Origin: Patescibacteria group bacterium
GTDB taxonomy: Bacteria > Patescibacteriota > Microgenomatia > Levybacterales > UBA12049
Assembly (NCBI GenBank): GCA_035946335.1
Contig: DASYZL010000001.1
Location: 1 to 62,051 of the forward strand
Length of the DNA: 62,051 bases
Direction of reading: 5' to 3'
Position 1 is the first letter of the stretch. Every line of letters starts with the position of its first letter. The translations under genes were made by a program, and so were the position numbers. The notes under the pieces are model-generated. The model saw only the letters and a list, made by a program, of their open reading frames with translations, did no database searches and had not been told where the DNA came from. Below, piece after piece: positions 28,935 to 51,416 of the stretch.

Positions 28935-28935
28935 A

Positions 28936-32231: not shown

Positions 32232-32954
32232 TTAATCAGTAAAGCGATACTTCAATAGTGTCCAGAGAGCAATCGGTCCATCCTTCATCGCAACAAGCTT
32301 TTTCCCTTCTTCATAGTTTCGGGGTACTGTTTCGATAGGAAGCTCTATAACACGAAGATGTAATTTAAGCAACTTAGCTGTTATTTCTGGTTCAAATGCA
32401 AATCCTTTTGCATGAATTGCCAGATGCTGTAATGCGTTACGGGGAAATAACTTATAACAAGTCTCCATATCAGTAATCCACGTCCCATATAGTACACTCG
32501 TCACTAAACTTAAAAATCTGTTACCGATATAGTGGAGAAGAAATTGGAGATTTTTTTCTTCTTTTGTAAAATGAGGAAGCCTTTTCAAGCGTGTTCCATA
32601 AACAATGTCTGCTTTTTTGAGTAAAATTGGTTGTACTAACTCTTTTAAGAACTTTGGGTCATATTCGAGATCTGCATCTTGAATAACAATGTAATCTCCT
32701 GTTGCTTTTCTAATACCAGTTATTACCGTTGCACCTTTCCCGGCATTTTTTTTATGTTGTGTGAATGAAATATTTTTCAATTTTTCTTTTTTGAGAAAGC
32801 TTGTTACTTTTTCAGCAGTCTTATCTATCGACCCATCATTAATAATGATTATTTCCTTTGTGATACCAGGGATAGTAACTGCAATAACTTTCTGCAGTAC
32901 TTCAAGTATAGTCTTCTCCTCATTAAAGACCGGGATAATAATTGATAATTTCAT
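32232..32954 (-). CDS. GT2 glycosyltransferase, polyprenyl-phosphate sugar synthase-like (DPM1/GtrB-like)
   Basis: 'LSIIIPVFNEEKTILEVL...IIIINDGSIDKT...NAGKGATVITGIRKATGDYIVIQDADLEYDP...FAFEPEITAKLLK'. Confidence 0.75.
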   Translation of the reverse strand: MKLSIIIPVFNEEKTILEVLQKVIAVTIPGITKEIIIINDGSIDKTAEKVTSFLKKEKLKNISFTQHKKNAGKGATVITGIRKATGDYIVIQDADLEYDPKFLKELVQPILLKKADIVYGTRLKRLPHFTKEEKNLQFLLHYIGNRFLSLVTSVLYGTWITDMETCYKLFPRNALQHLAIHAKGFAFEPEITAKLLKLHLRVIELPIETVPRNYEEGKKLVAMKDGPIALWTLLKYRFTD

Positions 32955-34864
32955 AGCTTAAAAAGCATTTCCTGCCCTCTCGTTCCAAGTAGCATACCCG
33001 GAAAACAATGTGACTGCTGCAACAGTAATGCATAATGAACATTCGGATCACCGATAAGTTTGTTCAGCTCAGTCCCAGTTAACGAACAATTATGGAGTAA
33101 CATATTGATATTTCCCATATTCGCTAGTCTTTTCCGCCTGATAGATGCTGTAGCATTATTGTCAAGACTTGGTGTCTCATAATATATTTGTCTCCCGGTT
33201 AGGGCTGAAAATACAGGAAATGAATTTCCTGATTGATCCAGCACTATTATAGCATCAGTTACAGGGATTTCACGTTGAATAACTTCACTCATAGCAAGTG
33301 TCTGAAGAGGAACAATAAAGGGTTGAGAAGCAAAAAATGATCTAAAAAATACAAAAAGATCTGGAACAATTACGATAAAAATGAGTGATACAAGAAGGAT
33401 TTGACTAACAACCTGTTTCTTTACATAGATTGATCCAATGACAAACCCTGTTGGAATCAAAAGGAAAATATATGTTAGCCAAATAAACTGGAAAACGTTA
33501 AAAACACCGCTTATTTGGACAAAAAATGTCGGTAGTAATAATCCGACAAGGATAACAATAAGCCAGAACACATGTACATAGTTTTGATAAAATGATTTTC
33601 GAAATAGATTCTGTATACGCAAAAGGGATAGAAAGCGGATATTAAGCGACGGGACAAAATACCAGAAAACCGCAACCAGGTATAGAAATGCGATGTGCAG
33701 CTGGTTATTATGCGCTGCGAAAACCTGGTATTTCAACCCCCATGCATATGAAGAGAGTGCAAGGGAACCTTCAATAAAATGACGGTACAAGAGAAATGGC
33801 GCGAATAACAATCCACCTGCTCCATAATTTATGGGAAGATAGAGAAAAGCACCTAGAAGAAATCCGAATAAACACATAAACAGAAATCGTGTATTTCTCT
33901 CACGGAGAAACGAAATTCCTGAAACAACGAAGACAGCCACATATACCATGACAGCTGCGTAGATTTTTGTTGATGGTAATACTCCGAGAAGCAGAATAGG
34001 AAATAGCATTTCTTTTTTTGTTTTTACTGAAAAAAACGTAGGAACAAGCAAGAACACAAAACATGTACCAAAAAGTACAGTCGGATCAAAAATATGCGAA
34101 TATCCCTGTATAATACCAGGATTATAATTAAGAAATTCCCTATCAAGCAGAAATGAAGTTATTGCGGTTAACCCCTGTCCAAAATAGAGAAGAATAAGAA
34201 ATATCAATATCCCCGCCTTTGACATTTTCATGTATTTTGCCGTTGCCAGTGCGGAAAATCCAAAGAAAAGCATTAGAAAGACTGGGAAGAAACGGAAAAA
34301 TAAGTCGTAGACAGAAAAAACAGGAAAAAGGTTAAAAAAATTCGCAATGAGGAAATCGTAGAGAAAATGATATCCGTGGAACGGCACATCACTCAGATAA
34401 GGTGTTTTTGGTGGAAATTGAGCGATAAACTGACGGATTAGACTCACATGGAAAAATCCGTCAATGGCATTTGCTCCATAGAGCTGCATTCCCCGCTTTG
34501 TGATAATGCCACTCGTTATAGTAAACAAAACAGCAGCAAATGAACCGATAAGGATAACAAAGACATTCTTATCCCAGGTGATTTTTTGTTTCGTCAGCAA
34601 ACGAGACACTTCTTGTATCAGGCAAAATAAAAGAAAAAAATAGTAGAGAAAAGTCACATGTATCCACGATAATATATACACTGTAACAAGAAAAAAACTG
34701 ATACCTAATCCAAATGCACATATCTCTCTTATTAAACCATCGAATTGCTTATCATATAATAAATCGAATAGATATCTCCCGGGAATGTAGATTGCGACCA
34801 AAAAAAACAAAATGAATAAAAGTACTGAGATAACTATCATATTAGGAAGCGAGAATGACATCAT
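32951..34864 (-). CDS. large polytopic membrane protein of unknown family (possible GT-C or polymerase)
   Basis: 637 aa and hydrophobic almost throughout (more than 12 helices by eye), with a short C-terminal soluble tail. I recognise no motif. The start could be the internal Met at 34840. Confidence 0.35.
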   Translation of the reverse strand: MMSFSLPNMIVISVLLFILFFLVAIYIPGRYLFDLLYDKQFDGLIREICAFGLGISFFLVTVYILSWIHVTFLYYFFLLFCLIQEVSRLLTKQKITWDKNVFVILIGSFAAVLFTITSGIITKRGMQLYGANAIDGFFHVSLIRQFIAQFPPKTPYLSDVPFHGYHFLYDFLIANFFNLFPVFSVYDLFFRFFPVFLMLFFGFSALATAKYMKMSKAGILIFLILLYFGQGLTAITSFLLDREFLNYNPGIIQGYSHIFDPTVLFGTCFVFLLVPTFFSVKTKKEMLFPILLLGVLPSTKIYAAVMVYVAVFVVSGISFLRERNTRFLFMCLFGFLLGAFLYLPINYGAGGLLFAPFLLYRHFIEGSLALSSYAWGLKYQVFAAHNNQLHIAFLYLVAVFWYFVPSLNIRFLSLLRIQNLFRKSFYQNYVHVFWLIVILVGLLLPTFFVQISGVFNVFQFIWLTYIFLLIPTGFVIGSIYVKKQVVSQILLVSLIFIVIVPDLFVFFRSFFASQPFIVPLQTLAMSEVIQREIPVTDAIIVLDQSGNSFPVFSALTGRQIYYETPSLDNNATASIRRKRLANMGNINMLLHNCSLTGTELNKLIGDPNVHYALLLQQSHCFPGMLLGTRGQEMLFKL

Positions 34865-35789
34865 CGTCTTTTTTACAGAAAAGTTTTTTATTTTTCCTTC
34901 GTACTTTCAATGCCTGTGGCAATAACTGGACTGCTTGAAAAAATCCACTGAGCAACTCCCAATTTTTTCCTTTTAATGAAGTGAGCAAATGATACGGAAG
35001 CCATAGTATGTGCTCAGTTATCAAATGAGTATCTGTTGCGTTTACCCAAACAAATAAAAATTGATTGCGATACGCAAGTTTCTGGATCCTTGTGGCAGTA
35101 TAATTCTTCTTGATTGCACCTCCCTCGTGTTCGTGGGTAACAATACTCTCCTTTTCAAATAGTGTTTTATACCCTGCTTTTCTTGCCCTGTAGGATACAT
35201 CAACATCTTCCCAGTAGAAGGGATTATAGATATTGCAAAGACCATGCAACGTATCCCAGATAGATTTACGGAATGCACCGCTTCCGCAACTCACCCATAG
35301 TGTATCTTCTTTATCAAGATCTCCTGCAGCATGTACCAGAAATCCCCGTTTCCATTGTCCTATTCCCCTTCCTCGTAGAATTGTTTTCCCGTCTTCAATA
35401 CTTTCATCCAAACAGCCAACGCCAAACACATCCTTTTCTTCAAAGTGCTTGAGAAGCGGTTCAAGAAATCCTTTCTTGGGAATTACATCGGTATTTAAAA
35501 GGAGCAAAATATCTCCGCTTGCAAGACTAACTCCTCTATTCACATTTGCTGAAAAACCACCATTACGTCTATCTGTATTGGTAATCGTTTTTACTAGTAT
35601 ATTTTTCTCTTTGGAATGTTCAATGAAATCTTTTATAACTGCAACAGAATTATCAGATGAAGCATCATCTGGAATAATCATCTCTATTGTTCCTTTTCTG
35701 TAATCCTTTACCGCTTCAAGAACTTTCGGAAGATTTTTCTTTAATAGTCTTTCTCCATTATAATTAGGAATAATAATACTGATGTTCAT
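34842..35789 (-). CDS. GT2 glycosyltransferase
   Basis: 'ISIIIPNYNGERLLKKNL...IIPDDASSDNS...NGGFSANVNRGV...LLLNTDV...WEDVDVSYRARKAGY'. Confidence 0.8.
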   Translation of the reverse strand: MNISIIIPNYNGERLLKKNLPKVLEAVKDYRKGTIEMIIPDDASSDNSVAVIKDFIEHSKEKNILVKTITNTDRRNGGFSANVNRGVSLASGDILLLLNTDVIPKKGFLEPLLKHFEEKDVFGVGCLDESIEDGKTILRGRGIGQWKRGFLVHAAGDLDKEDTLWVSCGSGAFRKSIWDTLHGLCNIYNPFYWEDVDVSYRARKAGYKTLFEKESIVTHEHEGGAIKKNYTATRIQKLAYRNQFLFVWVNATDTHLITEHILWLPYHLLTSLKGKNWELLSGFFQAVQLLPQALKVRRKNKKLFCKKDDDVILAS

Positions 35790-35798
35790 AAATCAATC

Positions 35799-38063
35799 TT
35801 AAAGTAATCGGTCTGAAAATACTACTCTATGGACCCCTTTCGGCACATAAACACCCCTGAGCGCAAGATCTGTTTGAAGTATACTGGTTTTATTACCATC
35901 AATGGCAACCTGCCATGTTGGATAAAATGTATCAGTTAAAACAAGAAATCCATCAGCTGAGTTATTTGTATTGATAGTGATGCTATTTGGTGAGTAAGCA
36001 AGAATACGTACCGTTCCTTTTGTGGGGGAAAATGGAGGAATTGTATCTTGAACAAATGCAACATCATTTAATGAATATTGCATGTTAAAAATGTTTTCTA
36101 TTGTTTCCTGATCTGAATGTGTTTGAATAACTTTATTGACAAAAAAGGCGCGTGGCAACACATTTTTATTTTCAAAAATTCTCGTCTGTCCTTCCTGGAA
36201 AACTTTTGTTAATGCAGGGTTTTTTTCTTCATGCAATGACAAAACATATTTCACTCCCAATAAATCCATGATGCGGCTATTGTATGAATGAGGTGTAATA
36301 ATCCTATTAAAACCAAATGGCTCATTAATATCCGGCTTTCCTCTTTCAGATGCAACAACCAATTCTCCGTATCGCAATAAATATAACGGGTCATATCCGT
36401 CAACGCTTTGCAAATGGTAATAGGATGAAACATTTGGTGGAAATATTTGTGAATCAGTTGTCATGTAACGGTAGTTGCCTAGATTATTTTGTAAAAAGGA
36501 AATTGTTTGCGTTTGAGGAAAAAGATATTGAGCAGGAGTAAACGGGATAAATTTTTCAGCAAAGCGCACAATATCAAAAACAAACAGAATTGTCAAACAA
36601 AAGAGGAGTGCGTATTGTACATTCTTTTTTTGTTGCGTCAGGAGAAAAAACATTACAAGTACTGCAAAAGCAACGAATGTAACAGATGGAAAAATAAGAT
36701 TTTGTTTGGCAATTTGTAAATCCATAAGGGGAATGGCAAAGGTAACACCTTCCTTCAAAACAAAGACCCACAATCCTCCGAAAAGAAGCGCAAAAAATCC
36801 GATAATAATAAGTATTTTTTTGTCCTGTTTTTTCAAGAAATAATCAGCTCCCACTGCCGCAAGTATTGCAAGGGAAAAATCCGTTACATATAGAAGCCGG
36901 GTTGGCTGCGAAGTTGAAAGAAAAGGAATTTTTAATAGAAACGGAATTACTGCAACAGGTGTTGGGAGAGCAAAAAGAAGTGAAAGAAAGAAAAGAACAC
37001 TGAAAAAAAATGTTTTTTTGTCATGGCGGAAGAACAAAGCATACATGGCAAATAAAAGAGGGATAATGCCAATATATCCAACGAACTCGGCGTAATTCCA
37101 AATTCCCCAGTAATTCAATGTTGCTGGATTGCCAAAAAAGTCAGGCGCAACAAATTGCACGAGGTGCTGCCATGGAAGAAACCATCCTTGTGTTGTAAAC
37201 GGATTTTGATCAACACTCCGGGCAGAAAATTGGATGAATTGTAACGTTGGTAACCATTGTGCAGCTGTTACGACAAGAATTGCAATGCCTACTAAAAGAA
37301 ACGGGATATATATCCTGAATATCGATAAAATGACTGAAGACTTTTTTTCTTTTTTTGCTTTTTGAGAAATTCTAACGAATAAATATAGGTTACTGATACA
37401 CAAACTATAAAACAACACTTGTATATGGCCACCTAAGAACTCACAGACTTCAGCAAAGAAAAAAATGAATCCCCACCCAATCGTCCATTTTCGTAACAAT
37501 TTATCTTTGGCAAGCAGGATGAGCGGGAGCCAGATGACGACTTGTAACACCGTATTCCACTCGAGCCATGCAACAAAAAATCCGGAAAAACAAAATGCAA
37601 GAGCTCCCAAAACTCCCGCACGCCAATCTAATCTTAAAGATTGTAAATAGAAAAATAAAAAAATGGCACCTAAGAACGGCTGCAATATGATAAGCAGACT
37701 CCAAGCAAAGTGGAAGGGCAAAAGGAAGAAAAAAATATTAAGAGGATAGAAAGGAGCTGATTGAAAATTTGCAAGTAGCGGATACCCGGCAAAGCTGTAA
37801 GGATTCCATAAGGGAAGCTGTCCAAGTTTTTCCATAGCAATCACAATGAATCGCCAAGGATATTGTTGCCTGATTGGATCGGTAATCAAATAGTTCTTAT
37901 AAGGAATTCCATTGGGATTTGTTTTTGCATACAAATCACGAAATGGGTGATACAGTCCGATAAGATCATCCGAAGGAATTGGCAAGAAACCAGACAGGAG
38001 AAACTGCCGAAAAAAAATAAGAATGATAAGGAAAATAAAAAGAACCGGGAAAATTTTTTTCAT
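35799..38063 (-). CDS. YfhO-like polytopic membrane protein (GT-C candidate)
   Basis: About 750 aa. 'SDDLIGLYHPFRDLYAK...ITDPIRQQYPWRF' and the C-terminal 'LVLTDTFYPTWQVAIDGNKT...VYVPKGVHRVVF' resemble the YfhO family layout. The start is moved to Met30 (MKKIFPVLF), giving an ATGA overlap with the upstream stop. Confidence 0.6.
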   Translation of the reverse strand: MKKIFPVLFIFLIILIFFRQFLLSGFLPIPSDDLIGLYHPFRDLYAKTNPNGIPYKNYLITDPIRQQYPWRFIVIAMEKLGQLPLWNPYSFAGYPLLANFQSAPFYPLNIFFFLLPFHFAWSLLIILQPFLGAIFLFFYLQSLRLDWRAGVLGALAFCFSGFFVAWLEWNTVLQVVIWLPLILLAKDKLLRKWTIGWGFIFFFAEVCEFLGGHIQVLFYSLCISNLYLFVRISQKAKKEKKSSVILSIFRIYIPFLLVGIAILVVTAAQWLPTLQFIQFSARSVDQNPFTTQGWFLPWQHLVQFVAPDFFGNPATLNYWGIWNYAEFVGYIGIIPLLFAMYALFFRHDKKTFFFSVLFFLSLLFALPTPVAVIPFLLKIPFLSTSQPTRLLYVTDFSLAILAAVGADYFLKKQDKKILIIIGFFALLFGGLWVFVLKEGVTFAIPLMDLQIAKQNLIFPSVTFVAFAVLVMFFLLTQQKKNVQYALLFCLTILFVFDIVRFAEKFIPFTPAQYLFPQTQTISFLQNNLGNYRYMTTDSQIFPPNVSSYYHLQSVDGYDPLYLLRYGELVVASERGKPDINEPFGFNRIITPHSYNSRIMDLLGVKYVLSLHEEKNPALTKVFQEGQTRIFENKNVLPRAFFVNKVIQTHSDQETIENIFNMQYSLNDVAFVQDTIPPFSPTKGTVRILAYSPNSITINTNNSADGFLVLTDTFYPTWQVAIDGNKTSILQTDLALRGVYVPKGVHRVVFSDRLL

Positions 38064-39133
38064 TGTATAAGCTTTTGAACCGATTCGCAGAATTGCTTTT
38101 CTGAAAAATCTGCTGCACGTTTTTTTGCGTTTTTTGAAAAAGATTCCCATAGTTTTTTATCTTCTATCAGTTTTTCTGTTTTTTCTTGTAACTCATCAAG
38201 GGTTGTCCACAACAATCCATTTTTTCCGTCTTGGACAATCTCTGTTTGGCCTCCGGCATGAATAACAACTGGCACGCATCCTGCTCCCATTGCTTCAACT
38301 GTTGCTATACCGAAGTGCTCAGCATATTCCGGATGTTTTTCAAGATCTTCCCCATACCCGCTTGCGTGCCAGTAAATTTTCGCTCTGGAGTAGATATCCC
38401 ATAATTCCTCATTTGTCTGGTTTATGAGAAACCGTATCGGATACCCTTTTGCACTCATCTGCATTGTTGCGAATGCTTCCTTATCGCGTTCTTTGATACT
38501 TACTGCCAAAACAAAATTCCACCCCTTTAATCCGTTATCAACCATATGTTTAAACGCATCAATCATGATATCCTGTTTCTTGTAATTGCCTCCATATATT
38601 GAAACATTTGCTACACGAAATCTTCCAACATGCAAAATGATATTTTCTTTTTTGATTTGCCTTGGATGTAACGCTACCGGTGGATATAAAACTGTTGTTT
38701 GTAAATGAAATTGTTTATCGATAAATGATTTTGTGTACTGGGAATTGCAGAAAAACTTGTAAATCCTTGCAACTTTTAGTTTATCAACAAGAGTAACCGT
38801 CTGCATTGCTTCAAGAGGCTGCTGGATATGAAGAAGTACTTTTTTTGTTAGTAAAAGCGGAATACTTCCGTCACTTAATACAATAATGACATCGTACTGT
38901 TTACTTTGGAAAAACCGTTCCCAAAACGAAACATGAGGAGAAAATATATTCTTTACGAGTTTTAGTTGTGATATATCGACAGCAAAGCGTTCATGAATAT
39001 CGCGAAGATCCTGTGGATTATCCCAAAAAATTGAAACGCTATTGTTCTCTGCTAAACATGCAGCAATAGTCATCATGTATTTTTCTCCGCCACCCAAATC
39101 ATCAAGATACGGGTCATAAATGCCAATGTTCAT
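38060..39133 (-). CDS. GT-B fold glycosyltransferase (family 4-like)
   Basis: 'EHFGIATVEAMGAGCVPVVIHAGGQTEIV' E-x7-E motif. Confidence 0.75.
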   Translation of the reverse strand: MNIGIYDPYLDDLGGGEKYMMTIAACLAENNSVSIFWDNPQDLRDIHERFAVDISQLKLVKNIFSPHVSFWERFFQSKQYDVIIVLSDGSIPLLLTKKVLLHIQQPLEAMQTVTLVDKLKVARIYKFFCNSQYTKSFIDKQFHLQTTVLYPPVALHPRQIKKENIILHVGRFRVANVSIYGGNYKKQDIMIDAFKHMVDNGLKGWNFVLAVSIKERDKEAFATMQMSAKGYPIRFLINQTNEELWDIYSRAKIYWHASGYGEDLEKHPEYAEHFGIATVEAMGAGCVPVVIHAGGQTEIVQDGKNGLLWTTLDELQEKTEKLIEDKKLWESFSKNAKKRAADFSEKQFCESVQKLIQ

Positions 39134-39141: not shown

Positions 39142-41214
39142 TTATAGAGGAAGCGTGATGTTTTCTCCATCATGTGCTTGTTTTTTCAGGATTGTTCTTG
39201 CGGTGTTTCCTTTTTTGTCGATAAGTATTAAACTTCCACCATCACTGCCGTGTAAGCGCGATTGATATTGTTTTTCAAATCCATTTACTCCCTGGTATGT
39301 CGTGCTGCTGTAAATAGCTGTACAGCATTCGTTCGTATTCATAACATCCACAGGGATGCTTTGTGTATACACGCGTGATGGGTAGGGAATAACTGATAAA
39401 CCTTGAAATGAAAGAATTGCAGATTTTGTTGCTTCATTCCATAGATAAAAAGATGTGAACAGCGGAATTACTTGTCCAGGGTATGGATTCTCAAGATAGG
39501 CATTTTGTATGTGCTCTTTTTCAATTCCCGATAGGTTACTTAAGTATAAGAGCATGTGTATCTCTTTTTGCCTGCTATATTTTTGAGGATCAATCAAAAC
39601 CTCATAGCCATCAATATCCTGCACAAGAATGTTGCCAGTTTTATCTGTTACTGATCCTCTTTTACCAAAAGTAACTCTTGCTATTAATATGTCTCCAGGC
39701 TGGAAACTATTCAGTAAATCATTCCAATCCCAAATAACTTTCCAGACATTATCTGTTTTTTGAAACCGGATTGTTTTTTTCTCCTGAAAACTACCTAAAT
39801 TCCTTGTTGCATAGGTCATGACACCCGAAACAATAAGCGAATCGTGTGCTTGCGTTTCTCCTGTTTGATGAAATGAGACAGACTGTATTTGCCCCTCTTC
39901 ATAGGCCTTTTGTGCAATAAGACGAAATACAGACCTGTTTGGAAGATGTTGATTATTGTCTATGTCTTCCATATATACATCCTGAAAATATCCATGAGAC
40001 ATATTGTAGAGAAAATAAGAAAGTACCGGCTGCACTGAAGGAGTAAGAAAGCTGTGTAGATAGACGAAAAAACCTATGCCAACGATATACAAACTACTTA
40101 TAACCATAACACGCCACTTTTCAATACCTTTTGTAATGTATTGGGCAGTAAAAAAATACAGAAATGGAAGAACAAGAAGTATATAACGCGTATAAACAGG
40201 GATGAAGAGGAATAGAAATATTGCAGCAATAACATACAGAGTAAGCATTTTTTTAACCAAGGAGTGATGCGTAATCCAGATGTTAATCATTCCAAAAATA
40301 CTGACAATAATACTAATGGGCCAAATGATCCACCATTCCTGTATTACAGTTAACACCCCGTTGCTAATATCCGGAAATTTTCCTAAAAAGAAAATATCAA
40401 ATAATGCTTTATGATGAACAGGTAGGTGTGATTTTGCATAAAATGCAATAATATACTTTTGCAATTTCAAAAAATCCTTAATGGAATAACCCAAGGCAAA
40501 GTACCTGCCATACGGAAAGAGAAATCCTGTGATACATCCCAAACAAAGCAAGAGAAACGGGAACAGTTTATGCTTTTTATAGTAAGCAAATGCAAAGAGG
40601 AAAAATAGAATAGGTGAAAGAATGGGAAATTTAATGGTGGAAAACAATCCGAGTGAAATTCCTGATAGAAGCGAAAAATACTGAGAAGCAGAAAGCGATT
40701 TTAGAAATGTCCAAATACTGAGAAGAAGAAAGAATACCTGCATGATATCTAATGAGCTGCTAACCAGTTGCGAGGCAAAAAGCGGATCACTAGCAAGAAG
40801 GAACGTAGCGAATAAACCGACCATGGACTTACCGGATACTGTTTTACCAATGAGAAACAGCAGAATAATACTGCCAATCCCAAGGAAAAGTGTTGCATAA
40901 TATGGATTGCCAAAAAGTAAAATAGAAAAACCTAGTAAGTATTTTCCAAGCGGTCCGGTTTCAGGATTAAACTGTGAGGGGTCAGCTCCATGCACCAATG
41001 TATATCCGACATAGGCAAACAATCCATCATCACCAACAGTTCTTTGGGACAGTGGTAAAACCCACTGCGAATGCTCTACCCTATCTTTCCAATACAATCC
41101 GTCGTATTTACTGAAAAGTAAACTTCTCTGGGAAAAAATAATTTGTCCAAGTTGCAGTAAAATGAAAAGGGAAAGAACGAATGAAGCTATTTTTTCTGAT
41201 TTGAGGAGAATCAT
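39142..41214 (-). CDS. fusion protein: N-terminal GT-C (PMT_2-like, family D) membrane domain plus C-terminal class B PBP-like non-catalytic (NTF2-like and dimerisation/pedestal) region
   Basis: The N-terminal half of about 430 aa is homologous to 9806..10942. The C-terminal 250 aa ('FQKTDNVWKVIWDWNDLL...GKRGSVTDKTGNILV...GVNGFEKQYQSRLHGSDGGSLILIDKKGNTARTILKKQAHDGENITLPL') reads like the N-terminal half of PBP2a-type class B PBPs. It ends where the transpeptidase would begin. Confidence 0.6.
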   Translation of the reverse strand: MILLKSEKIASFVLSLFILLQLGQIIFSQRSLLFSKYDGLYWKDRVEHSQWVLPLSQRTVGDDGLFAYVGYTLVHGADPSQFNPETGPLGKYLLGFSILLFGNPYYATLFLGIGSIILLFLIGKTVSGKSMVGLFATFLLASDPLFASQLVSSSLDIMQVFFLLLSIWTFLKSLSASQYFSLLSGISLGLFSTIKFPILSPILFFLFAFAYYKKHKLFPFLLLCLGCITGFLFPYGRYFALGYSIKDFLKLQKYIIAFYAKSHLPVHHKALFDIFFLGKFPDISNGVLTVIQEWWIIWPISIIVSIFGMINIWITHHSLVKKMLTLYVIAAIFLFLFIPVYTRYILLVLPFLYFFTAQYITKGIEKWRVMVISSLYIVGIGFFVYLHSFLTPSVQPVLSYFLYNMSHGYFQDVYMEDIDNNQHLPNRSVFRLIAQKAYEEGQIQSVSFHQTGETQAHDSLIVSGVMTYATRNLGSFQEKKTIRFQKTDNVWKVIWDWNDLLNSFQPGDILIARVTFGKRGSVTDKTGNILVQDIDGYEVLIDPQKYSRQKEIHMLLYLSNLSGIEKEHIQNAYLENPYPGQVIPLFTSFYLWNEATKSAILSFQGLSVIPYPSRVYTQSIPVDVMNTNECCTAIYSSTTYQGVNGFEKQYQSRLHGSDGGSLILIDKKGNTARTILKKQAHDGENITLPL

Positions 41215-41501: not shown

Positions 41502-42254
41502 TTATTGTAACGAGTGCTCTTGCTGCATTTCCCACAATCGTGCGTAAGTGATAAACATACTGAATGACTGGTAGATGCTCTCAATTAATCCTACTGTCCC
41601 AACTTTCCACCCTTCTTGTAGAATGTATGAATCAAAGAATGCTGTTGCCATGACTCGGAGGAATCGCCACCATGTCATTCTCGGATGTTTTGCGTCATAC
41701 CGAAGTTTTGCCTCTATTTCGGACCATTCCACTGTTTTTGCAAGCATTGACGATAAATCTCGATGGGTATAGTGCAGTAAGTATCCATCGAGTTCGCCAA
41801 TTCTTCCTTTTGTGACTGGACTTTCGTGCACTTTTCCTTTCCAGTTTATTAGAGCTTCACGTTTAAAAAGCCGCTCCAATTTTTCTATTTTTGGCCAGGG
41901 GTGGTCACCCAGATAAAAATTCTGCCTGAGGATTTTATATACATACACTTCCTGTAATTCTTTTCGTGTTGTTGCAATAATTGTATTTTGCAACTCTGTG
42001 CTTACCCGCTCATCCGTATCAATGTAAAAAATCCATTCTCCTTTTGATGCACTCAATCCAATGTTACGCTGTTCAGCAAAATCCCTCTCAACGCCTTTTA
42101 TGATACGTGCGCCCATCCGTTTTGCGACATCACTTGTGCGATCCGTTGAGCCACCATCAATTATCAAAATTTCATCACAAAACTGAATAGAATCTATGCA
42201 GTCGGCAATAAGATGTTCCGCATTTTTTGCTATGATAATTGCTGAGAGTTTCAT
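41502..42254 (-). CDS. GT2 glycosyltransferase
   Basis: 'LSAIIIAKNAEHLIADCIDSIQFCDEILIIDGGSTDRT...FYIDTDERVS'. It is a paralogue of 15176 and 53568. Confidence 0.8.
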   Translation of the reverse strand: MKLSAIIIAKNAEHLIADCIDSIQFCDEILIIDGGSTDRTSDVAKRMGARIIKGVERDFAEQRNIGLSASKGEWIFYIDTDERVSTELQNTIIATTRKELQEVYVYKILRQNFYLGDHPWPKIEKLERLFKREALINWKGKVHESPVTKGRIGELDGYLLHYTHRDLSSMLAKTVEWSEIEAKLRYDAKHPRMTWWRFLRVMATAFFDSYILQEGWKVGTVGLIESIYQSFSMFITYARLWEMQQEHSLQ

Positions 42255-42309: not shown

Positions 42310-45300
42310 TCAATGTAGTTTCAAAGCTTCTATTTCTCCATTACTCGCTTCTGCATTATTTGGATCAATAAGTAGGGCATTTTCAAATGCTTGTAGCGCA
42401 TTATGATAATCTTTCATATCTAAGTAAGCATATCCAATACAACTATGTAAACGACTCCTTCTTGGTTCAATATCCAGTGCCCTTTTATATTCTTCATATG
42501 CTTCTGTTGGCTTACCTAATAATCTCAATGCATCACCTCTATACATAATGGACATCCAATTATTTGGATTAAGTGACAGTGCAAGGTTAAATTGATCGAG
42601 TGCTTCTTGATATTGCTTTTGTTGCAATTGCACATTTCCCTTGCCATTCATCGCCCAAATATCTACTGGATTTAGATCTAACGCTCTATCAAAATCTTGA
42701 AGTGCTTCGCTATATCGTTGTAAATGATGATGCGCTTCTCCTCTACGAAAAAACGCAATATCGTTTTCCGGATTAAGAGCGATAACTTTATCGTGAGAAC
42801 TCATGGCTTCTTGATACCTCCCGAGTTCATTTAATGCATTTCCTCTCCCTAAATGAGCTTCAATATTTTCAGGATCAAGCTGTGCTGCGCGGTCAAATTG
42901 CTCTAACGCATCATCATATTGCTCTAGTGATTCATAATCTAATCCTGATAATACAAGAGCGCTCGCCTCACGAACCCTGATATCATGCACGATACCCTCA
43001 GTTCTAGTTTTCGCTGCTATGACATCTGGATAGTTTATCATCCGTTTATTTGGATTATCAACCCGAAGTGAACTTGTTAAAGCAATAAGTGCTTCTTCAT
43101 ATCGTTGAAGATCTAATAAGACAAAACCTTTTTTCATCCATGCAACACTATCTTGATACTGACAAGCCTGTAATGCTTGCTCGTAAACTGCTAATGCTTC
43201 ATCTGGTCTCATAAGTTGCCTGAGCATATCCCCCTTACCCTTTAATGCGTCAATGTACTGTGGGTCAATTTGGATAGCCTTTTCAAATGCTTCCAAGGCA
43301 GCTTCATGTTCATCAATCGTAATACTTACATTGCCAATATTAAAATAAGCTAACTTATTCTCAGGAAATATTTTTATTGCTTCATCATATTTTCCTAGTG
43401 CTTCTGTTAGTTGATCTTTGTCTTCAAGCTCTTTAGCTTCCCTAACTAAATTCATTGAGTCCCTTTTATTTTGAATAGAAACACTTTTTTCTAAACTCTG
43501 AATTCTTTTTGCAAGGCTTTTATCGTGACCATTTAATGAATATGCAATATTATATGATTTTAACGCTTCAGGTAACCTATTTTGTATTTCTAATATTTCT
43601 CCTATACTTACTAATACAGATATATTTGCTTTATTTTTTGAGAGTATTTGTGCATACACCTGCAAAGCTTCTTCATATTTTTTCATGTACGTCAGCAATT
43701 TACCTTTACGAAAAGATGGCTCATAATTTCCTGGATTAAGTGCGGTTGCTTTATCATATTCTACTAGTGCATCTTCAAACCGGAACATTCTCGTGAATAT
43801 GTCACCTCTTTGCAAAAAGTAGTACTCATGAGGAGCAAGGGCAATAGCCTGATCGTATGCGGCAAGTGCCGTCGGATACTCTTTCATTTTGAATAAAATA
43901 TCACCACGATACTCATGATGGGAAACATCGTCTGGTTCAATTTGAATCAATGCATCAACTGCTGAGAGCATTCCATTTAAATCTCCAACTTTACCACTTG
44001 CTTCAAGTTTTCCATCTAATGCTACCTTATTTGAAGGATCTATTTTTAATGCTCGTTCATAAGCTTTCAATGCGGTAACAGGATTATTGCTCCGCAAGAG
44101 AATATTACCTTGCTCAACTTCCCTGTTTACCTCCTCTAAATCTTGACCAGCACGTATTTCCCTTACTTCTGACCTTGTTTTTCTCCAGACTTTTGACAAT
44201 AAAGCCATAGGACCTACCCCATCAGGTGGCGCAAGTTGCAATATTTGCTGATCACCGCTCATTTGCACATCGCCCTGAGAAACATTTGGCTCAGTTTGTG
44301 TGACATTGTATGAACGTCTCGGTTGATTCCTAGGATTTTGCCAAACTCCTAGTGTTGTTCTCTCCGGTAGAGTAACAACAGTCATCTGATCTGCAACAAT
44401 AGGATTTGGAAGATTACCAACGGTACTACTAATAGATATATATCCTACAGGTTGTTCCGGTTCACTAAGAACTCTTAAGTACGCATTGATTCTTGCTTTT
44501 CCATAATCTTCTACTGTTGCATATCTATCTTCCTGCTTTGGTGCCATACCTCTTCTTACTACCGGCCAACCTTCTTCAGGTATAGGACCAGATAATCCTT
44601 TCTGTGTGAAGGAAGGCGGTTCAACAGTTTCATGAAGTTCTAGCCAATAATCATTTTTTGCCTCTTGACTCAATTTTCCGTATTCTTTTTCATAGGACTT
44701 AGGAATTCTAAAAGGTGTCTCACCAACAGCAGACCAATAGTCTGTAACCGCAAGTCCATATTGATCACTAAAAGATGACGCTTTATTCCGGAATTGCTCT
44801 GGAGCCATAAAGAAAACTGTCCCTCTTAGTTCCTTATGCTTTGCGGGTTCAGCTCCTTTAAGCAAAGAACTGATAAGAGCAATATCAAAATCATTTAACC
44901 AAAGATTACCCTCATTCAATAATAAATTACCGAGTTTGACGTCACAATGAATTATCCCTTTTCCATGCGCAGCTTGCAGAGCACTTGCAGCCTGATATAT
45001 ATACCTCGGTAAATCATGCTGCTGAAACCTGCCGTAAACGCTAACGACATCTTTCATCGACCCATCCCTTGCGTAACCTAATGCAACAAAGTTAACTCTT
45101 CTTCCTCTCTCAAATCCCGAGCCATAATATGGCACAACATATGGATGCTGCAAGGCACTTAACCGTTCTAATGCAGTTTTTTCTATTTCAAAGCCATTTC
45201 TGACATCTTCCCCTCCCATTAGACCGTTTTGCGATTCGTTTGCAAATGCTTTTATTACCACTGGAAAACCTGTAGGCGTTTCAGTAAAGTATACTTCAGC

Positions 45301-45387
45301 ACCTCCTCCTTTACCCAATAGTCCTTGCACACGATATCCCGGATGCCCTGAATCGTTTACAATATAGCCTTGTTCAAACATACTCAT
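42310..45387 (-). CDS. Ser/Thr protein kinase (Hanks-type) fused to about 16 tetratricopeptide repeats
   Basis: The kinase has 'GKGGGAEVY' (Gly loop), 'VVIKAF' (Lys), 'IIHCDVKLGNLLL' (catalytic loop), 'NDFDIA' and 'MAPEQF'. From about aa 430 there are repeated 34-aa 'G..l....y.eAl..y..Al.ldP.n' units. No TM segment is visible. Confidence 0.85.
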   Translation of the reverse strand: MSMFEQGYIVNDSGHPGYRVQGLLGKGGGAEVYFTETPTGFPVVIKAFANESQNGLMGGEDVRNGFEIEKTALERLSALQHPYVVPYYGSGFERGRRVNFVALGYARDGSMKDVVSVYGRFQQHDLPRYIYQAASALQAAHGKGIIHCDVKLGNLLLNEGNLWLNDFDIALISSLLKGAEPAKHKELRGTVFFMAPEQFRNKASSFSDQYGLAVTDYWSAVGETPFRIPKSYEKEYGKLSQEAKNDYWLELHETVEPPSFTQKGLSGPIPEEGWPVVRRGMAPKQEDRYATVEDYGKARINAYLRVLSEPEQPVGYISISSTVGNLPNPIVADQMTVVTLPERTTLGVWQNPRNQPRRSYNVTQTEPNVSQGDVQMSGDQQILQLAPPDGVGPMALLSKVWRKTRSEVREIRAGQDLEEVNREVEQGNILLRSNNPVTALKAYERALKIDPSNKVALDGKLEASGKVGDLNGMLSAVDALIQIEPDDVSHHEYRGDILFKMKEYPTALAAYDQAIALAPHEYYFLQRGDIFTRMFRFEDALVEYDKATALNPGNYEPSFRKGKLLTYMKKYEEALQVYAQILSKNKANISVLVSIGEILEIQNRLPEALKSYNIAYSLNGHDKSLAKRIQSLEKSVSIQNKRDSMNLVREAKELEDKDQLTEALGKYDEAIKIFPENKLAYFNIGNVSITIDEHEAALEAFEKAIQIDPQYIDALKGKGDMLRQLMRPDEALAVYEQALQACQYQDSVAWMKKGFVLLDLQRYEEALIALTSSLRVDNPNKRMINYPDVIAAKTRTEGIVHDIRVREASALVLSGLDYESLEQYDDALEQFDRAAQLDPENIEAHLGRGNALNELGRYQEAMSSHDKVIALNPENDIAFFRRGEAHHHLQRYSEALQDFDRALDLNPVDIWAMNGKGNVQLQQKQYQEALDQFNLALSLNPNNWMSIMYRGDALRLLGKPTEAYEEYKRALDIEPRRSRLHSCIGYAYLDMKDYHNALQAFENALLIDPNNAEASNGEIEALKLH

Positions 45388-45393
45388 AAAATA

Positions 45394-47016
45394 TTAAGTA
45401 AAATCTTCTTCATCGAGTTTTTCTCGTTCTTTATTAACATGTTGCTGTGTTTGCACTAAAGGTTCAAACAAGTGATTCAATATGGTAAATCTACCCAAAT
45501 AGTCGGTAAATGTTTGTAAGTTTCCGGCTATTTGTTCTCTATTTGGAAGTAATTGTCCATAATAAGAACTTACTTCACTCCAACCATTTTGATCCGCAGT
45601 GCGTTTCATCCTTGTTAATAAAACTCCGATATCTTCGCTAGTCATGTCAGAAGAAATAAGTGATACTGAACCTTCACCAAGAAATAATCTTATATTTCCT
45701 TTAATAATATCTGCTAGATTTGTTACAGCTAACCGTTTTACTTCTTCTACATCTGGAGTTTCAATTCCCCTTTTTCTTGGTTCGGTAAGTTTTGCATCAT
45801 ACACTTGATCAATAAGCTCCATTCTATATTGTGAAGCTCTTGGAGAAGAACGTAATACCTGTAGTTCATTTTCTGTAAGGGAATATTTGAGGTATGCTTC
45901 AGGGTTCCATTGATACTCTTGTGTTAATGAAGCATTAATACTCTCAATATCACCTTTCAACTGACTCGTTAAGAGATAATGAAGAAAAAACAAATAATTA
46001 ACTGGAGAACCTGGAAATTCAAGGTGCACTTTTTCGTCGTTATCCTCAGTTTTCTCAGGAGAAACTTTAGGACGTTGAAGTTGTAATACGTTTTCTTGGT
46101 AAACTGGTTCTTCAACTTCTTCTATGATCTTATATTCCCCTTCGATTGATTCTTGTGGTATTGACTCTTGTTCTAGTCCAGCAATCTGACGTGCTTTTGT
46201 TTTAGCTTTTGAATGATTAGGTTGAGGTTTTTCAGAAACAACTAAAGCATTTGATTGAACATTTTGTGGCTCTGGAACAGTTGGAGTTTTTATGACACTT
46301 TCTGTCTCACTTTCATCTTCGATTATGCTTCGTTTCCTAGTAATTTCTTCATCAACTTGTTCATTGAACGTTTGCTGATGAATATCATTCCTTAGTAAAC
46401 CTTCCTCTGTACTCACAAACCTTCTTGGGCTATCCTGGATTTCAGTATTATATACACTTTCTAATGTTGGAGAAAATTGAGGTTCATTGGTTGTTCTTAA
46501 TGTTACTGTATCTTGGTCTGCTAGGAAAAAATCAACTCGAGCTACTTGCACTGACCCCAAAGTTGGAGTCATTGTCGGGTAGGATCCTGTTATTTTTTGA
46601 GTTAATTCAGACTCAGTTAAGGAAAGTTTGTTCTCATAATACTGAGTCATTGCCTTAATTAGTGCGAGTCGAATCTCGCTTTGGATTCTCACTTTCGTTG
46701 GATCATTTCTTGTTTCAGAAGTTATTCTTGAAAACTCTTGTCCAATCGTATTAATCCCCTGATGTACTTCTGAAAGTTCGTTGCAAAGTGCAATGACAAA
46801 ACCAGGATTATATAGTTCCATACTAAAATGTTGAGATTCTGGATCAGCTACATCAAGAGTAAATCGTAAACCTTGTAAAATAGCAATATCCGACATTTTA
46901 GAAATATCCACTATACTCTGTTGATTTTTTCTCCTCTCAACTCCAGTTACTTTTCTAAGAAGACTCCCTGCTCTATATAGCAATTTACTTTTTCCTGATT
47001 CAACTTGATCTTTCAT
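45394..47016 (-). CDS. hypothetical protein (acidic, no recognisable domain)
   Basis: 540-aa ORF sitting tightly between the kinase and phosphatase genes (6-nt and 19-nt gaps). The central part is E/Q/S/T/P-rich and low in complexity. There is no TM segment and no motif I recognise. Confidence 0.6.
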   Translation of the reverse strand: MKDQVESGKSKLLYRAGSLLRKVTGVERRKNQQSIVDISKMSDIAILQGLRFTLDVADPESQHFSMELYNPGFVIALCNELSEVHQGINTIGQEFSRITSETRNDPTKVRIQSEIRLALIKAMTQYYENKLSLTESELTQKITGSYPTMTPTLGSVQVARVDFFLADQDTVTLRTTNEPQFSPTLESVYNTEIQDSPRRFVSTEEGLLRNDIHQQTFNEQVDEEITRKRSIIEDESETESVIKTPTVPEPQNVQSNALVVSEKPQPNHSKAKTKARQIAGLEQESIPQESIEGEYKIIEEVEEPVYQENVLQLQRPKVSPEKTEDNDEKVHLEFPGSPVNYLFFLHYLLTSQLKGDIESINASLTQEYQWNPEAYLKYSLTENELQVLRSSPRASQYRMELIDQVYDAKLTEPRKRGIETPDVEEVKRLAVTNLADIIKGNIRLFLGEGSVSLISSDMTSEDIGVLLTRMKRTADQNGWSEVSSYYGQLLPNREQIAGNLQTFTDYLGRFTILNHLFEPLVQTQQHVNKEREKLDEEDFT

Positions 47017-47035
47017 ATATTTCTTATCATAATTA

Positions 47036-50929: not shown

Positions 50930-50949
50930 AGTCTTTATTTAGTTTCCAT

Positions 50950-51276: not shown

Positions 51277-51416
51277 GGAATGTTGTAATGCTAAAAACGA
51301 ATTACTATTATAGGACGCTGAGGTTGTAAAGTCAATGTAATATACGAAAAATGTGTCTCATTACCGCATTCTTTAAAATAGCCTCGGACGCCTATTGACT
51401 GCATTGGACGGCCAAG

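What the first reader, a model, noticed from the sequence alone, without database searches (positions are those of the whole stretch)
39142..39950. GT-C membrane glycosyltransferase fused to a PBP-like pedestal region that lacks a transpeptidase domain
Seen in sequence: the N-terminal ~430 aa of the 690-aa product of 39142..41214 form a multi-TM domain homologous to the stand-alone 9806..10942 protein. Shared elements include the first-loop 'DD/DE' pair, 'PLGKYL(L/I)G' and 'LDIMQ'. The last ~250 aa are soluble and read 'FQKTDNVWKVIWDWNDLLNSFQPGDILIARVTFGKRGSVTDKTGNILVQDIDGYEVLIDPQK ... YQGVNGFEKQYQSRLHGSDGGSLILIDKKGNTARTILKKQAHDGENITLPL'. Established knowledge, from my recollection of staphylococcal PBP2a: class B PBPs begin with an NTF2-like MecA_N domain ('FVKEDGMWKLDWDHS...') and then a dimerisation/pedestal domain ('ERGKILDRNN...GKKGLEKLYDKKLQHEDGY...[29 protein letters not shown]'). 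The transpeptidase starts immediately after that. The protein here matches this order segment by segment and stops exactly at the pedestal/transpeptidase boundary. The next gene is a GT4, not a transpeptidase. Inference: in class B PBPs the pedestal is the part that contacts and regulates the partner SEDS polymerase. Grafting it onto a GT-C enzyme suggests either a glycosyltransferase that docks on the peptidoglycan synthesis machinery or a pedestal reused as a carbohydrate or protein recognition module. I do not know of this architecture being described.
Basis: partly seen in the sequence, partly recalled or inferred. Interest (0 to 1): 0.78.

Follow-up and report, generated by a model that had tools for sequence, protein, structure and literature searches.

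The report
Membrane glycosyltransferase fused to PBP pedestal
A membrane sugar-transferring enzyme of an uncultured ultra-small (CPR) bacterium carries on its outer face the non-catalytic stalk of a penicillin-binding protein, without the penicillin-binding part. The fusion is real, is conserved in about a hundred related lineages, was not found described in the papers searched, and may link wall building to wall glycosylation.

Summary
Window 39142..41214 (minus strand) encodes a 690-aa protein.

- **N-terminal part (aa 1-365):** a compact 10-helix GT-C(A) glycosyltransferase. Foldseek matches AglB, STT3 and ArnT. The family keeps an invariant D62 and a near-invariant D63 in the first outer loop.
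- **C-terminal part (aa ~366-690):** one further membrane helix plus the complete non-penicillin-binding module of a PBP2a/PBP3-type class B PBP, that is, an NTF2-like MecA_N domain followed by the pedestal.
  - Pfam PBP_dimer: E=2e-13.
  - Family profile against B. subtilis PBP3: E=5e-27.
  - Foldseek against PBP2a: E=1e-15.
  - hhalign against a clostridial PBP: 99.6%.
- **End point:** the protein stops at the "LTID" pedestal/transpeptidase junction. No transpeptidase remnant exists in the window or in 67 related loci.

It is not an artefact. About 100 clusters at 50% identity share the ~690-aa architecture, all in Microgenomates-type CPR bacteria. Both halves are equally conserved. In the closest clade the gene sits in a conserved operon: GT2 - this gene - GT4 - YfhO - GT2 - polyprenyl-P-sugar-synthase-like GT2.

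The most likely function is an outward-facing, polyprenyl-phosphate-sugar-dependent glycosyltransferase whose PBP-derived module targets it to nascent peptidoglycan or to the wall-synthesis machinery. That role is inferred, not shown. I rate it a new variant of known kinds, of moderate to high interest.

The parts
39142..41214 (-). Whole gene: 690-aa GT-C glycosyltransferase fused to a transpeptidase-less class B PBP N-terminal module (stop codon 39142..39144)
   Evidence: ORF list; Pfam; AF2 model pLDDT 92, pTM 0.89; about 90 full-length homologues at 30-43% identity
40120..41214 (-). aa 1-365: compact GT-C(A) membrane domain, 10 TM helices with N-terminus inside, equivalent to the stand-alone ~378-aa paralogues
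   Evidence: Model pLDDT 94. Foldseek: AglB 3wak E=3.8e-5; ArnT 5f15 TMq 0.57, rmsd 6.1; STT3, ALG12, Pmt1/2, AftA, Emb. Pfam PMT 22.3 bits, cut-off 22.7. Precomputed PMT_2 hit. Paralogues end right after TM10.
41026..41031 (-). D62-D63, the acidic pair in the first extracytoplasmic loop; putative catalytic/metal site of GT-C(A) enzymes
   Evidence: D62 invariant and D63 >=90% conserved in 45 fused and 53 fused-plus-stand-alone sequences. Role inferred from established GT-C(A) knowledge (ArnT, PglB, PMT).
40042..40119 (-). aa 366-391: K/R-rich cytoplasmic turn plus TM11, the extra helix that carries the chain back outside; absent from stand-alone paralogues
   Evidence: Helix 368-390 in both models. 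Paralogue ends. Positive-inside count: 13.7 K+R in proposed inner loops against 1.5 in short outer loops, averaged over 45 sequences.
39700..40041 (-). aa 392-505: NTF2-like MecA_N-type domain
   Evidence: Family profile aligns from ~395 to PBP2a chain residue 4 and PBP3 residue 25. NCBIfam PBP4(5) match starts at aa 390. Pfam MecA_N hits 8 of 13 family members, best 3.9e-9, but not this copy. Helices plus 5-strand sheet in the model.
39145..39699 (-). aa 506-690: PBP pedestal (PBP_dimer) with class B boxes 1-3 (GKRGS..D..G; R614-x-Y; G642..E647..L654..G659-G660); ends at the pedestal/transpeptidase junction
   Evidence: PF03717 E=2.2e-13 and 13 of 13 members. hhalign ends at 'LTID' of a 676-aa PBP. 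Conservation.
39322..39327 (-). C630-C631: vicinal cysteine pair in the family-specific motif N-T-x-Y-x-E-C-C-T-R-I-Y-S-S; function unknown
   Evidence: >=90% conserved. 39 of 45 members have exactly two Cys in the whole outer domain. Absent at this position in PBP2a and in the five nearest PBPs.
38060..39133 (-). Downstream GT4 (cytoplasmic, no TM); conserved partner gene
   Evidence: Pfam Glycos_transf_1 1.1e-21. Immediately downstream of the fusion gene in 9 of the 10 operon loci (a GT2 lies between them in L028).
35799..38063 (-). YfhO-type GT-C; its likely start ATG overlaps the GT4 stop (ATGA)
   Evidence: Pfam YfhO 1e-17. Synteny. Sequence CAATGAAA read.
32232..35789 (-). Rest of the conserved operon: GT2 (315 aa), a polytopic membrane protein of 637 aa with no Pfam match, and a 240-aa GT2 resembling polyprenyl-phosphate-sugar synthases
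   Evidence: Pfam and NCBIfam: AglJ 1.8e-28, PpgS 5.4e-17, dolichyl-P-hexose transferase. 12 hydrophobic stretches in ORF637, counted as about 14 TM. Synteny.
41502..42254 (-). Upstream 250-aa GT2, conserved neighbour
   Evidence: Pfam Glycos_transf_2 1.6e-16. 47-64% identical orthologue next to the fusion gene, or to the YfhO gene that precedes it, in all 10 operon loci (upstream in 9, downstream in L028).
9806..10942 (-). Stand-alone paralogue of the GT-C domain (378 aa, no TM11, no PBP module), itself followed by a GT4
   Evidence: BLASTP 30% identity, E=4e-25. C-terminal end. GT4 at 8764..9822.

Best explanation
The gene encodes an active GT-C glycosyltransferase that faces the outside of the cell.

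Proposed steps:
1. It takes a sugar from a polyprenyl-phosphate-sugar donor. The donor is made in the cytoplasm by a DPM1/AglJ-like GT2 of the same operon and is flipped across the membrane.
2. It transfers that sugar to a cell-envelope acceptor.
3. Its extracytoplasmic domain is the N-terminal half of a PBP2a/PBP3-type class B PBP (membrane helix, NTF2-like MecA_N domain, pedestal), captured by gene fusion and cut exactly where the transpeptidase would start.
4. I propose that this module plays the role that C-terminal periplasmic domains play in other GT-C(A) enzymes (PglB/AglB, EmbB/C, AftD). It would be an acceptor- or wall-targeting domain that places the active site on nascent peptidoglycan or on a peptidoglycan-linked glycopolymer, at the height and place where the wall is made.

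Shown: the two folds, their order, the conserved catalytic-type residues, the truncation point, family conservation and the operon.

Inferred: topology (positive-inside rule plus homology), the donor type, the acceptor, and the targeting role.
For: Architecture:
- Pfam PBP_dimer.
- PDB sequence and profile hits to PBP2a, PBP3 and PBP5 over the whole non-penicillin-binding module.
- Foldseek E=1e-15.
- hhalign 99.6%.
- GT-C(A) fold.

Active enzyme:
- D62 invariant; D63, D143, D156, K195, R343 invariant or nearly so.
- D62, D63, D156, K195 and R343 stay conserved when the stand-alone paralogues are added.

Both halves are under equal constraint: 39% against 36% mean identity.

Outward orientation:
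- 11 TM helices.
- 13.7 against 1.5 K+R in the proposed inner against short outer loops.
- All GT-C(A) C-terminal domains and all PBP pedestals are extracytoplasmic (established knowledge).

Donor supply and glycan context:
- Conserved operon with a GT2 resembling AglJ/PpgS, a GT4 and YfhO in 10 loci.
- Wzx-type flippases in the window.
- An EamA/DMT transporter lies within about 2 kb upstream on the same strand in about 21 loci of the other clade.

Peptidoglycan binding by the homologous module is documented for PBP2a: PDB entries 3zg5, 3zg0 and 3zfz, whose titles name peptidoglycan analogue or muramic acid at the allosteric site, are among the Foldseek hits.

The stand-alone paralogue shows that the GT-C core works without the module, so the module adds targeting or regulation rather than catalysis.
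Against: - No acceptor is identified.
- No peptidoglycan-synthesis gene (SEDS, MreC, Mur, PBP) appears next to the gene in the six loci with precomputed Pfam annotation or in the window.
- Gene context differs between clades, and one member sits among unrelated housekeeping genes.
- PMT-type enzymes glycosylate proteins, so the acceptor may be a protein.
- The nearest PBPs appear to be lipoproteins (a lipobox is readable), so the idea that TM11 descends from a PBP anchor is uncertain.
Confidence: 0.45

Rival explanations
1. Protein-protein docking or regulation. The pedestal keeps its class B PBP job of contacting a SEDS polymerase (RodA/FtsW) or an MreC/FtsQLB-type regulator. The GT-C enzyme would then ride on, or compete for, the peptidoglycan synthase complex. 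Alternatively the pedestal allosterically gates its own GT-C domain in cis, mirroring a SEDS-bPBP pair.
For: The three conserved class B boxes of the pedestal are retained. The module begins with a membrane helix, as in bPBPs whose helix packs on SEDS TM8/9 (established knowledge of RodA-PBP2). pTM 0.89 for the whole chain suggests a fixed arrangement of pedestal and membrane domain. Natural SEDS-bPBP chimeras are reported (PMC12516126).
Against: There is no synteny with SEDS, MreC or dcw genes in any annotated locus. The boxes are structural-core motifs and say nothing about partner surfaces. No complex prediction could be run. The closest PBP relatives are PBP3/PBP2a-type accessory PBPs, not the MrdA or FtsI proteins known to pair with RodA and FtsW.
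Confidence: 0.25
2. Generic lid or acceptor-binding domain with no link to peptidoglycan. The PBP module was recruited merely as a stable extracytoplasmic scaffold. Examples would be binding a protein acceptor for PMT-like O-glycosylation of pilins or S-layer proteins, or a lipid-linked glycan in a stepwise GT-C assembly line.
For: Pfam's best match for the membrane domain is PMT/PMT_2. The operon GT2 also resembles PgfS of a protein-glycosylation system. The window holds 13 PMT_2-type GT-C genes (12 in the run 12011..32230, two of whose 14 ORFs have no Pfam hit, plus 59932..61704), which suggests a large extracytoplasmic glycan assembly line. A family-specific E-C-C-T-R-I-Y-S-S motif absent from PBPs suggests a new binding site.
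Against: It does not explain why the complete TM-NTF2-pedestal unit, with all PBP core motifs, is kept at 36% mean identity across about 100 clusters rather than replaced by a simpler domain. Homologous modules bind peptidoglycan fragments (PDB titles).
Confidence: 0.2
3. Decayed ordinary PBP, or an assembly/gene-calling chimera.
For: None beyond the unusual architecture.
Against: There are only 8 nt between the stop codon and the next gene. No transpeptidase-like sequence is found in the window (best E=0.4) or in 67 related loci. About 100 clusters at 50% identity from independent assemblies have the same length and end point. 40 species-level genomes carry a full-length copy. Both halves are equally conserved.
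Confidence: 0.01

Closest known systems
PBP2a (MecA) / E. faecium PBP5 / E. faecalis PBP4 / B. subtilis PBP3 (PbpC): class B PBPs with a MecA_N extension
   Same: Same order of membrane anchor, NTF2-like MecA_N domain and pedestal. Boxes 1-3 are conserved. These are the best sequence, profile and structure matches.
   Different: There is no transpeptidase domain, so it is not a penicillin-binding protein. The anchor is preceded by a 10-TM glycosyltransferase. A family-specific ECC motif is present. Identity is only ~18-20%.
ArnT / PMT / AglB-STT3 type GT-C(A) glycosyltransferases (Pfam PMT, PMT_2)
   Same: Fold. Acidic pair in the first outer loop. PLGKY-type motif at the start of the next helix. 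Predicted N-in/C-out topology with an extracytoplasmic C-terminal domain. Operon with a polyprenyl-P-sugar-synthase-like GT2.
   Different: The membrane core is much smaller (~365 aa, 10+1 TM, against 11-13 TM and ~550 aa). The C-terminal domain is unrelated to those of ArnT or PglB. Sequence similarity is at or below Pfam thresholds. Donor and acceptor are unknown.
SEDS-bPBP synthase pairs (RodA-PBP2, FtsW-FtsI) and the natural SEDS-bPBP chimeras reported in PMC12516126
   Same: A polytopic glycosyltransferase using a lipid-linked sugar is combined with a PBP pedestal and its membrane helix.
   Different: The membrane enzyme here has a GT-C(A) fold, not SEDS. The partner lacks the transpeptidase. 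The combination is covalent. No evidence shows that the pedestal regulates catalysis.
EmbA/B/C and AftD arabinosyltransferases of mycobacteria
   Same: GT-C enzymes with C-terminal extracytoplasmic modules that hold the growing wall glycan. They work in multi-GT-C assembly lines fed by polyprenyl-P-sugars. They appear among the weaker Foldseek hits.
   Different: Their accessory domains are carbohydrate-binding modules, not a PBP module. They come from a different phylum and are far larger.
Pedestal-only proteins (PF03717 without PF00905), 2572 counted in InterPro (PMC12516126)
   Same: A pedestal without a transpeptidase.
   Different: The passages of that survey I searched do not mention any GT-C fusion. 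Its supplementary tables were not available to check.

Membership tests
GT-C(A) fold glycosyltransferase | Polytopic membrane fold superimposable on ArnT/PglB/AglB/PMT | tested here: met
   Foldseek with a pLDDT-94 model: AglB E=3.8e-5; ArnT 5f15 TMq 0.57, rmsd 6.1 over 388 columns; probability 1.00 for 15 GT-C entries
GT-C(A) fold glycosyltransferase | Conserved acidic residue(s) in the first extracytoplasmic loop | tested here: met
   D62 invariant and D63 >=90% conserved in 53 sequences, including stand-alone paralogues
GT-C(A) fold glycosyltransferase | Uses a polyprenyl-phosphate-linked sugar donor on the outer face | not testable with these tools
   Circumstantial only: AglJ/PpgS-like GT2 and flippase genes in the operon or window; conserved K195 and R343 on predicted outer loops
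Pfam PMT (PF02366) / PMT_2 (PF13231) | Score at or above the curated gathering threshold | tested here: inconclusive
   PMT 22.3 bits against a 22.7 cut-off; PMT_2 not reported in my scan. A precomputed PF13231 hit is listed for this protein and many homologues.
Class B penicillin-binding protein | Pedestal / PBP_dimer domain (PF03717) following a membrane anchor | tested here: met
   E=2.2e-13, 51.4 bits against a 24.4 cut-off; 13 of 13 members
Class B penicillin-binding protein | Transpeptidase domain (PF00905) with SxxK, SxN and KTG motifs | tested here: not met
   The protein ends at the 'LTID'-equivalent junction. No Pfam transpeptidase hit. tblastn with two transpeptidase domains finds nothing in the window or in 67 loci. 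It is therefore not a PBP.
MecA_N (PF05223) NTF2-like domain | Significant match to the Pfam model, or equivalent homology, N-terminal to the pedestal | tested here: inconclusive
   This copy has no hit at E<=0.01. 8 of 13 family members hit, best 3.9e-9. The family profile and hhalign cover the region: PBP3 residues 25 onward, PBP2a chain residue 4 onward, 99.6%. NCBIfam PBP4(5) match from aa 390.
SEDS-bPBP type synthase | SEDS (FtsW/RodA/SpoVE) membrane domain | tested here: not met
   The listed Pfam and Foldseek matches name GT-C(A) enzymes; no RodA or FtsW entry is among them

The most novel reading that the evidence does not exclude
The PBP pedestal may be a portable control module for membrane glycosyltransferases that use lipid-linked sugars. 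In this CPR family it would either gate a non-SEDS, GT-C(A) enzyme in cis, as bPBP pedestals gate RodA/FtsW. Or it would plug the enzyme into the SEDS/MreC machinery, so that wall glycosylation is mechanically coupled to peptidoglycan polymerisation. Either way the pedestal-glycosyltransferase partnership would be older and more general than the SEDS-bPBP pair.
Probability: 0.2. Interest if true: 0.85.

Novelty: new variant of a known kind. Interest (0 to 1): 0.6.

Why it matters
The pedestal of class B PBPs is currently understood only as the stalk and allosteric partner of the SEDS peptidoglycan polymerases. Here the same module, with its NTF2-like extension, has been separated from its transpeptidase and welded to a different class of lipid-linked-sugar glycosyltransferase. 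That arrangement has been kept under selection across a whole class of ultra-small, uncultured bacteria.

If the module binds peptidoglycan or the synthase complex, this would be a natural example of wall glycosylation coupled physically to wall synthesis. It would also give a transpeptidase-free system for studying what the pedestal and the MecA_N domain, which form the allosteric domain of PBP2a in MRSA, actually recognise.

It also adds a defined, testable component to the almost unknown cell-envelope biology of CPR bacteria, whose genomes, like this window, are crowded with GT-C genes.

Tried and rejected
- **Decayed PBP or assembly chimera:** rejected.
- **Pfam MecA_N on the window copy itself:** no hit at E<=0.01. 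The assignment rests on family members, profile and structure.
- **Sequence or profile search of the N-terminal domain against PDB:** all 60 matches shown were PBPs. The GT-C identity needed a structure search.
- **Conserved link to peptidoglycan genes:** none in the six Pfam-annotated loci or in the window. Context is conserved only within clades.
- **Other C-terminal fusions of this GT-C subfamily, or a GT-C plus full-length PBP intermediate:** none among 97 word-indexed hits or among the top 150 of the exhaustive search.
- **Promoter and terminator scan around the gene:** counts equal to shuffled controls, uninformative.
- **tRNA and Rfam scans of the window:** nothing.
- **Literature:** five searches found no description. 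The supplementary tables of PMC12516126, which list pedestal-only proteins, are not held.
- **Inter-domain contacts:** I could not inspect them, nor map PBP2a allosteric-site or SEDS-contact residues, because model coordinates and PAE are not exposed.
Full report
**What is there**

The finding lies in a 690-aa ORF on the minus strand, 39142..41214. The window has 37% G+C and no tRNA or Rfam hit. Nearly every large ORF is on the minus strand, and most of those scanned against Pfam are glycosylation genes.

**The C-terminal half is a PBP module without its enzyme**

Evidence that the C-terminal half is homologous to the non-penicillin-binding part of a class B PBP:
- Pfam gives PBP_dimer at E=2.2e-13 over aa 517-674, covering almost the whole profile.
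- A profile of the family reaches B. subtilis PBP3 at E=4.7e-27 and PBP2a at ~6e-21. The match starts at profile position ~397, directly after the last membrane helix, and runs to the last residues.
- MrdA, FtsI and PBP2x match more weakly and only over the pedestal.
- NCBIfam's enterococcal PBP4(5) model aligns aa 390-688 to its positions 33-337.
- hhalign of the C-terminal family alignment against a Caldicoprobacter-type PBP gives 99.6% probability over residues 24-336 of 676. It stops at '...DGNDVMLTID', where the transpeptidase domain begins.
- Pfam MecA_N is matched by 8 of 13 family members, best 3.9e-9, but not by the window copy at E<=0.01.
- An AlphaFold2 model built on 45 homologues is confident throughout: pLDDT 92, pTM 0.89. 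All 50 listed Foldseek hits are PBP2a, E. faecium PBP5 or B. subtilis PBP3, best E=1.1e-15 over ~310 columns.
- The three conserved boxes of class B N-terminal modules, recalled from my own knowledge of Goffin and Ghuysen's classification, are recognisable and conserved: GKRGS..D..G; R614-x-Y; G642..E647..L654..G659-G660.

**The N-terminal half is a compact GT-C enzyme**

- Sequence methods are marginal: PMT scores 22.3 bits against a 22.7 cut-off, and a precomputed PMT_2 hit exists.
- A separate model of aa 1-430 (pLDDT 94) matches GT-C(A) structures: AglB, STT3, ArnT (TM-score 0.57, rmsd 6.1), ALG12, Pmt1/2, AftA and Emb.
- D62 is invariant in 53 sequences. D63, D156, K195, R343 and Y344 are at least 90% conserved in the same set, which includes stand-alone paralogues. 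This supports a working enzyme.
- The stand-alone protein at 9806..10942 is 30% identical over aa 60-353, E=4e-25.
- That paralogue and others end just after the tenth helix with a K/R-rich tail. The fusion therefore adds one helix (aa 368-390) plus the PBP module.
- Taking the helices from the model, the loops I assign to the cytoplasm carry on average 13.7 K+R in 47.5 residues. The short outer loops carry 1.5 in 19, of which 1.0 is the invariant K195.
- This supports an 11-TM topology with the N-terminus inside and the C-terminus outside. That is also the orientation of every known GT-C(A) C-terminal domain and every PBP pedestal (established knowledge).
- Topology is thus inferred, not demonstrated.

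**Not an artefact, not a wreck**

- The stop codon is 8 nt from the next gene, a GT4.
- tblastn with two transpeptidase domains finds only chance hits in the window (E>=0.4) and nothing in 67 related loci.
- A word-indexed search found about 90 full-length homologues of 30-43% identity, nearly all ~690 aa.
- An exhaustive profile search with the C-terminal module alone gave 104 representatives below 1e-30. The top ~100 clusters at 50% identity are all ~690 aa with the match at ~390-690, or are fragments.
- Below them lies a score gap. Ordinary ~655-685-aa PBPs follow, with the match at residues ~25-340.
- No ~1000-aa intermediate combining GT-C with a full PBP appeared in the top 150.
- The nearest named PBPs are from Clostridia (Mahella, Caldicoprobacter, 'PBP3') and Chloroflexota.
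- The two halves are equally conserved, at 39% and 36% mean identity to the query.

**Who has it and where**

A scan of species-representative genomes found about 40 full-length copies. All are in Microgenomates-type CPR assemblies: Levybacteria/Levyibacteriota, Roizmanbacteria, Gottesmanbacteria, Woesebacteria and 'Patescibacteria group'. About 20 further loci hold only the stand-alone GT-C.

- **Clade closest to the window (>=35% identity):** the order GT2(250 aa) - [YfhO] - fusion - GT4 - YfhO - GT2 - (membrane ORF) - GT2(240 aa) recurs in 10 loci.
  - The 240-aa GT2 resembles polyprenyl- or dolichyl-phosphate sugar synthases: AglJ 1.8e-28, PpgS 5e-17.
  - The GT4 stop overlaps the likely YfhO start in an ATGA.
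- **Gottesmanbacteria/Woesebacteria-type clade (28-34% identity):** these neighbours are absent. An EamA/DMT transporter lies within about 2 kb upstream on the same strand in about 21 loci. A conserved unrelated gene downstream shows that general synteny is also high there.
- **One member** sits among housekeeping genes.
- **No locus with Pfam annotation** shows SEDS, MreC, Mur or PBP genes nearby.

**How it most likely works**

*Shown:*
- A GT-C(A) fold with conserved catalytic-type residues.
- An extra helix followed by a complete NTF2-plus-pedestal module.
- Truncation at the transpeptidase boundary.
- Selection on both parts.
- A glycosylation operon that includes a likely lipid-phosphate-sugar synthase.

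*Inferred:*
- The enzyme uses a polyprenyl-phosphate sugar on the outer face.
- The PBP module acts as its extracytoplasmic targeting or acceptor domain, as the C-terminal domains of PglB/AglB or the carbohydrate-binding modules of Emb/AftD do.
- The homologous region of PBP2a binds peptidoglycan fragments, according to the PDB titles of 3zg5, 3zg0 and 3zfz among the hits.
- The pedestal is built to reach the wall layer, so the most economical reading is targeting to nascent peptidoglycan or to a peptidoglycan-linked polymer.
- I put this at about 0.45.

*Rivals:*
- The pedestal keeps a protein-protein role with SEDS- or MreC-type partners, or gates the GT-C domain in cis (0.25).
- It is a generic scaffold or lid for a protein or lipid-linked acceptor unrelated to peptidoglycan (0.2).
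- Lack of synteny with wall-synthesis genes, and my inability to inspect model coordinates, prevent a decision.

**Comparison with what is known**

- It is not a PBP. The defining transpeptidase was tested for and is absent.
- It is a GT-C(A) glycosyltransferase by fold and by the loop-1 acidic motif, but only borderline by Pfam thresholds.
- It resembles a SEDS-bPBP pair in logic but not in the membrane fold.
- A 2025 survey of morphogenetic synthases counted 2572 InterPro proteins with a pedestal but no transpeptidase, including 'Bacteria incertae sedis'. It also described SEDS-bPBP chimeras. The passages found do not mention a GT-C fusion, and its tables were not available.
- Five full-text searches found no description.
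- NCBI labels one member simply 'phospholipid carrier-dependent glycosyltransferase'.
- The architecture is certainly present in public databases, so novelty lies in recognition and interpretation.

**Verdict**

- The function is plausible but unproven.
- I rate it a new variant of known kinds, with interest 0.6.

Noticed in passing
window 12011..32230 and 59932..61704: Thirteen ~520-590-aa PMT_2-type GT-C genes: 12 in a run of 14 tandem ~490-570-aa ORFs at 12011..32230 (broken only by a 255-aa GT2 at 15176..15943), plus one at 59932..61704. All are on the minus strand except 13636..15201. Two ORFs of the run (15940..17418 and 17415..19133) have no Pfam hit but are predicted 10-11 TM proteins. 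This is an unusually dense GT-C paralogue array and suggests stepwise extracytoplasmic glycan assembly.
   Followed up: partly
window 42310..52600: Relative to L003, L004 and L027, where the GT2 genes are adjacent, the operon here is interrupted by a ~10-kb block. It holds a Ser/Thr kinase with a long TPR array (1025 aa), a 540-aa ORF with no family, a 1297-aa protein with a C-terminal PP2C phosphatase domain, and a Replic_Relax-like gene on the opposite strand (51782..52600). It may be an inserted mobile or regulatory segment.
   Followed up: partly
window 39322..39327 (C630-C631): A vicinal Cys-Cys pair lies in the family-specific motif NTxYxECCTRIYSS of the pedestal. These are the only cysteines of the outer domain in 39 of 45 members and are absent from PBP2a and the nearest PBPs. 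The function is unexplained; it could be a redox or ligand site.
   Followed up: partly
L014-L045 (for example L045 4994..5905, L037 4292..5191, L031 4932..5843): In the Gottesmanbacteria/Woesebacteria-type clade an EamA/DMT transporter gene lies within about 2 kb upstream of the fusion gene, on the same strand in all but one (~21 loci). It could be the flippase for the lipid-linked donor. A 138-aa Nuc_deoxyrib_tr-like gene is conserved downstream on the other strand, so plain synteny is an alternative explanation.
   Followed up: partly
window 5042..7446: Adjacent NTP_transferase, SIS-domain isomerase and GHMP-kinase genes look like a nucleotide-activated heptose (GmhA/HddA/HddC-type) pathway. 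They sit next to a Wzx-type flippase (7506..8780), GT4 and GT2 genes and an epimerase (10939..11904).
   Followed up: no
window 38060..38063: The GT4 stop codon TGA overlaps an ATG of the YfhO gene (CAATGAAA). This is typical translational coupling. The mechanical ORF call (start at 38150) probably over-extends YfhO by 29 codons.
   Followed up: yes
L008, L010-L013 and others; L041: Many CPR-like contigs carrying this family are titled 'uncultured Gammaproteobacteria bacterium' (binchicken/co-assembly MAGs), and one is titled 'Candidatus Pacearchaeota archaeon'. These labels look like placeholder or mis-binned taxonomy, given 30-42% identity and shared operon structure with Levybacteria/Roizmanbacteria contigs.
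   Followed up: no
proteins P0181, P0183, P0185, P0190: The nearest full-length PBPs to the module have lipobox-like N-termini (LAGC, LNGC, VPAC, VGC). They appear to be lipoproteins rather than TM-anchored. The origin of the fusion's TM11, a PBP anchor or signal helix versus a new helix, is therefore open.
   Followed up: no
window 8764..10942: The stand-alone GT-C paralogue (9806..10942) is also followed directly by a GT4 gene (8764..9822), overlapping it by 17 nt. This mirrors the GT-C-then-GT4 order of the fused gene. In the paralogue-only loci a YfhO gene lies ~2.5 kb downstream.
   Followed up: partly
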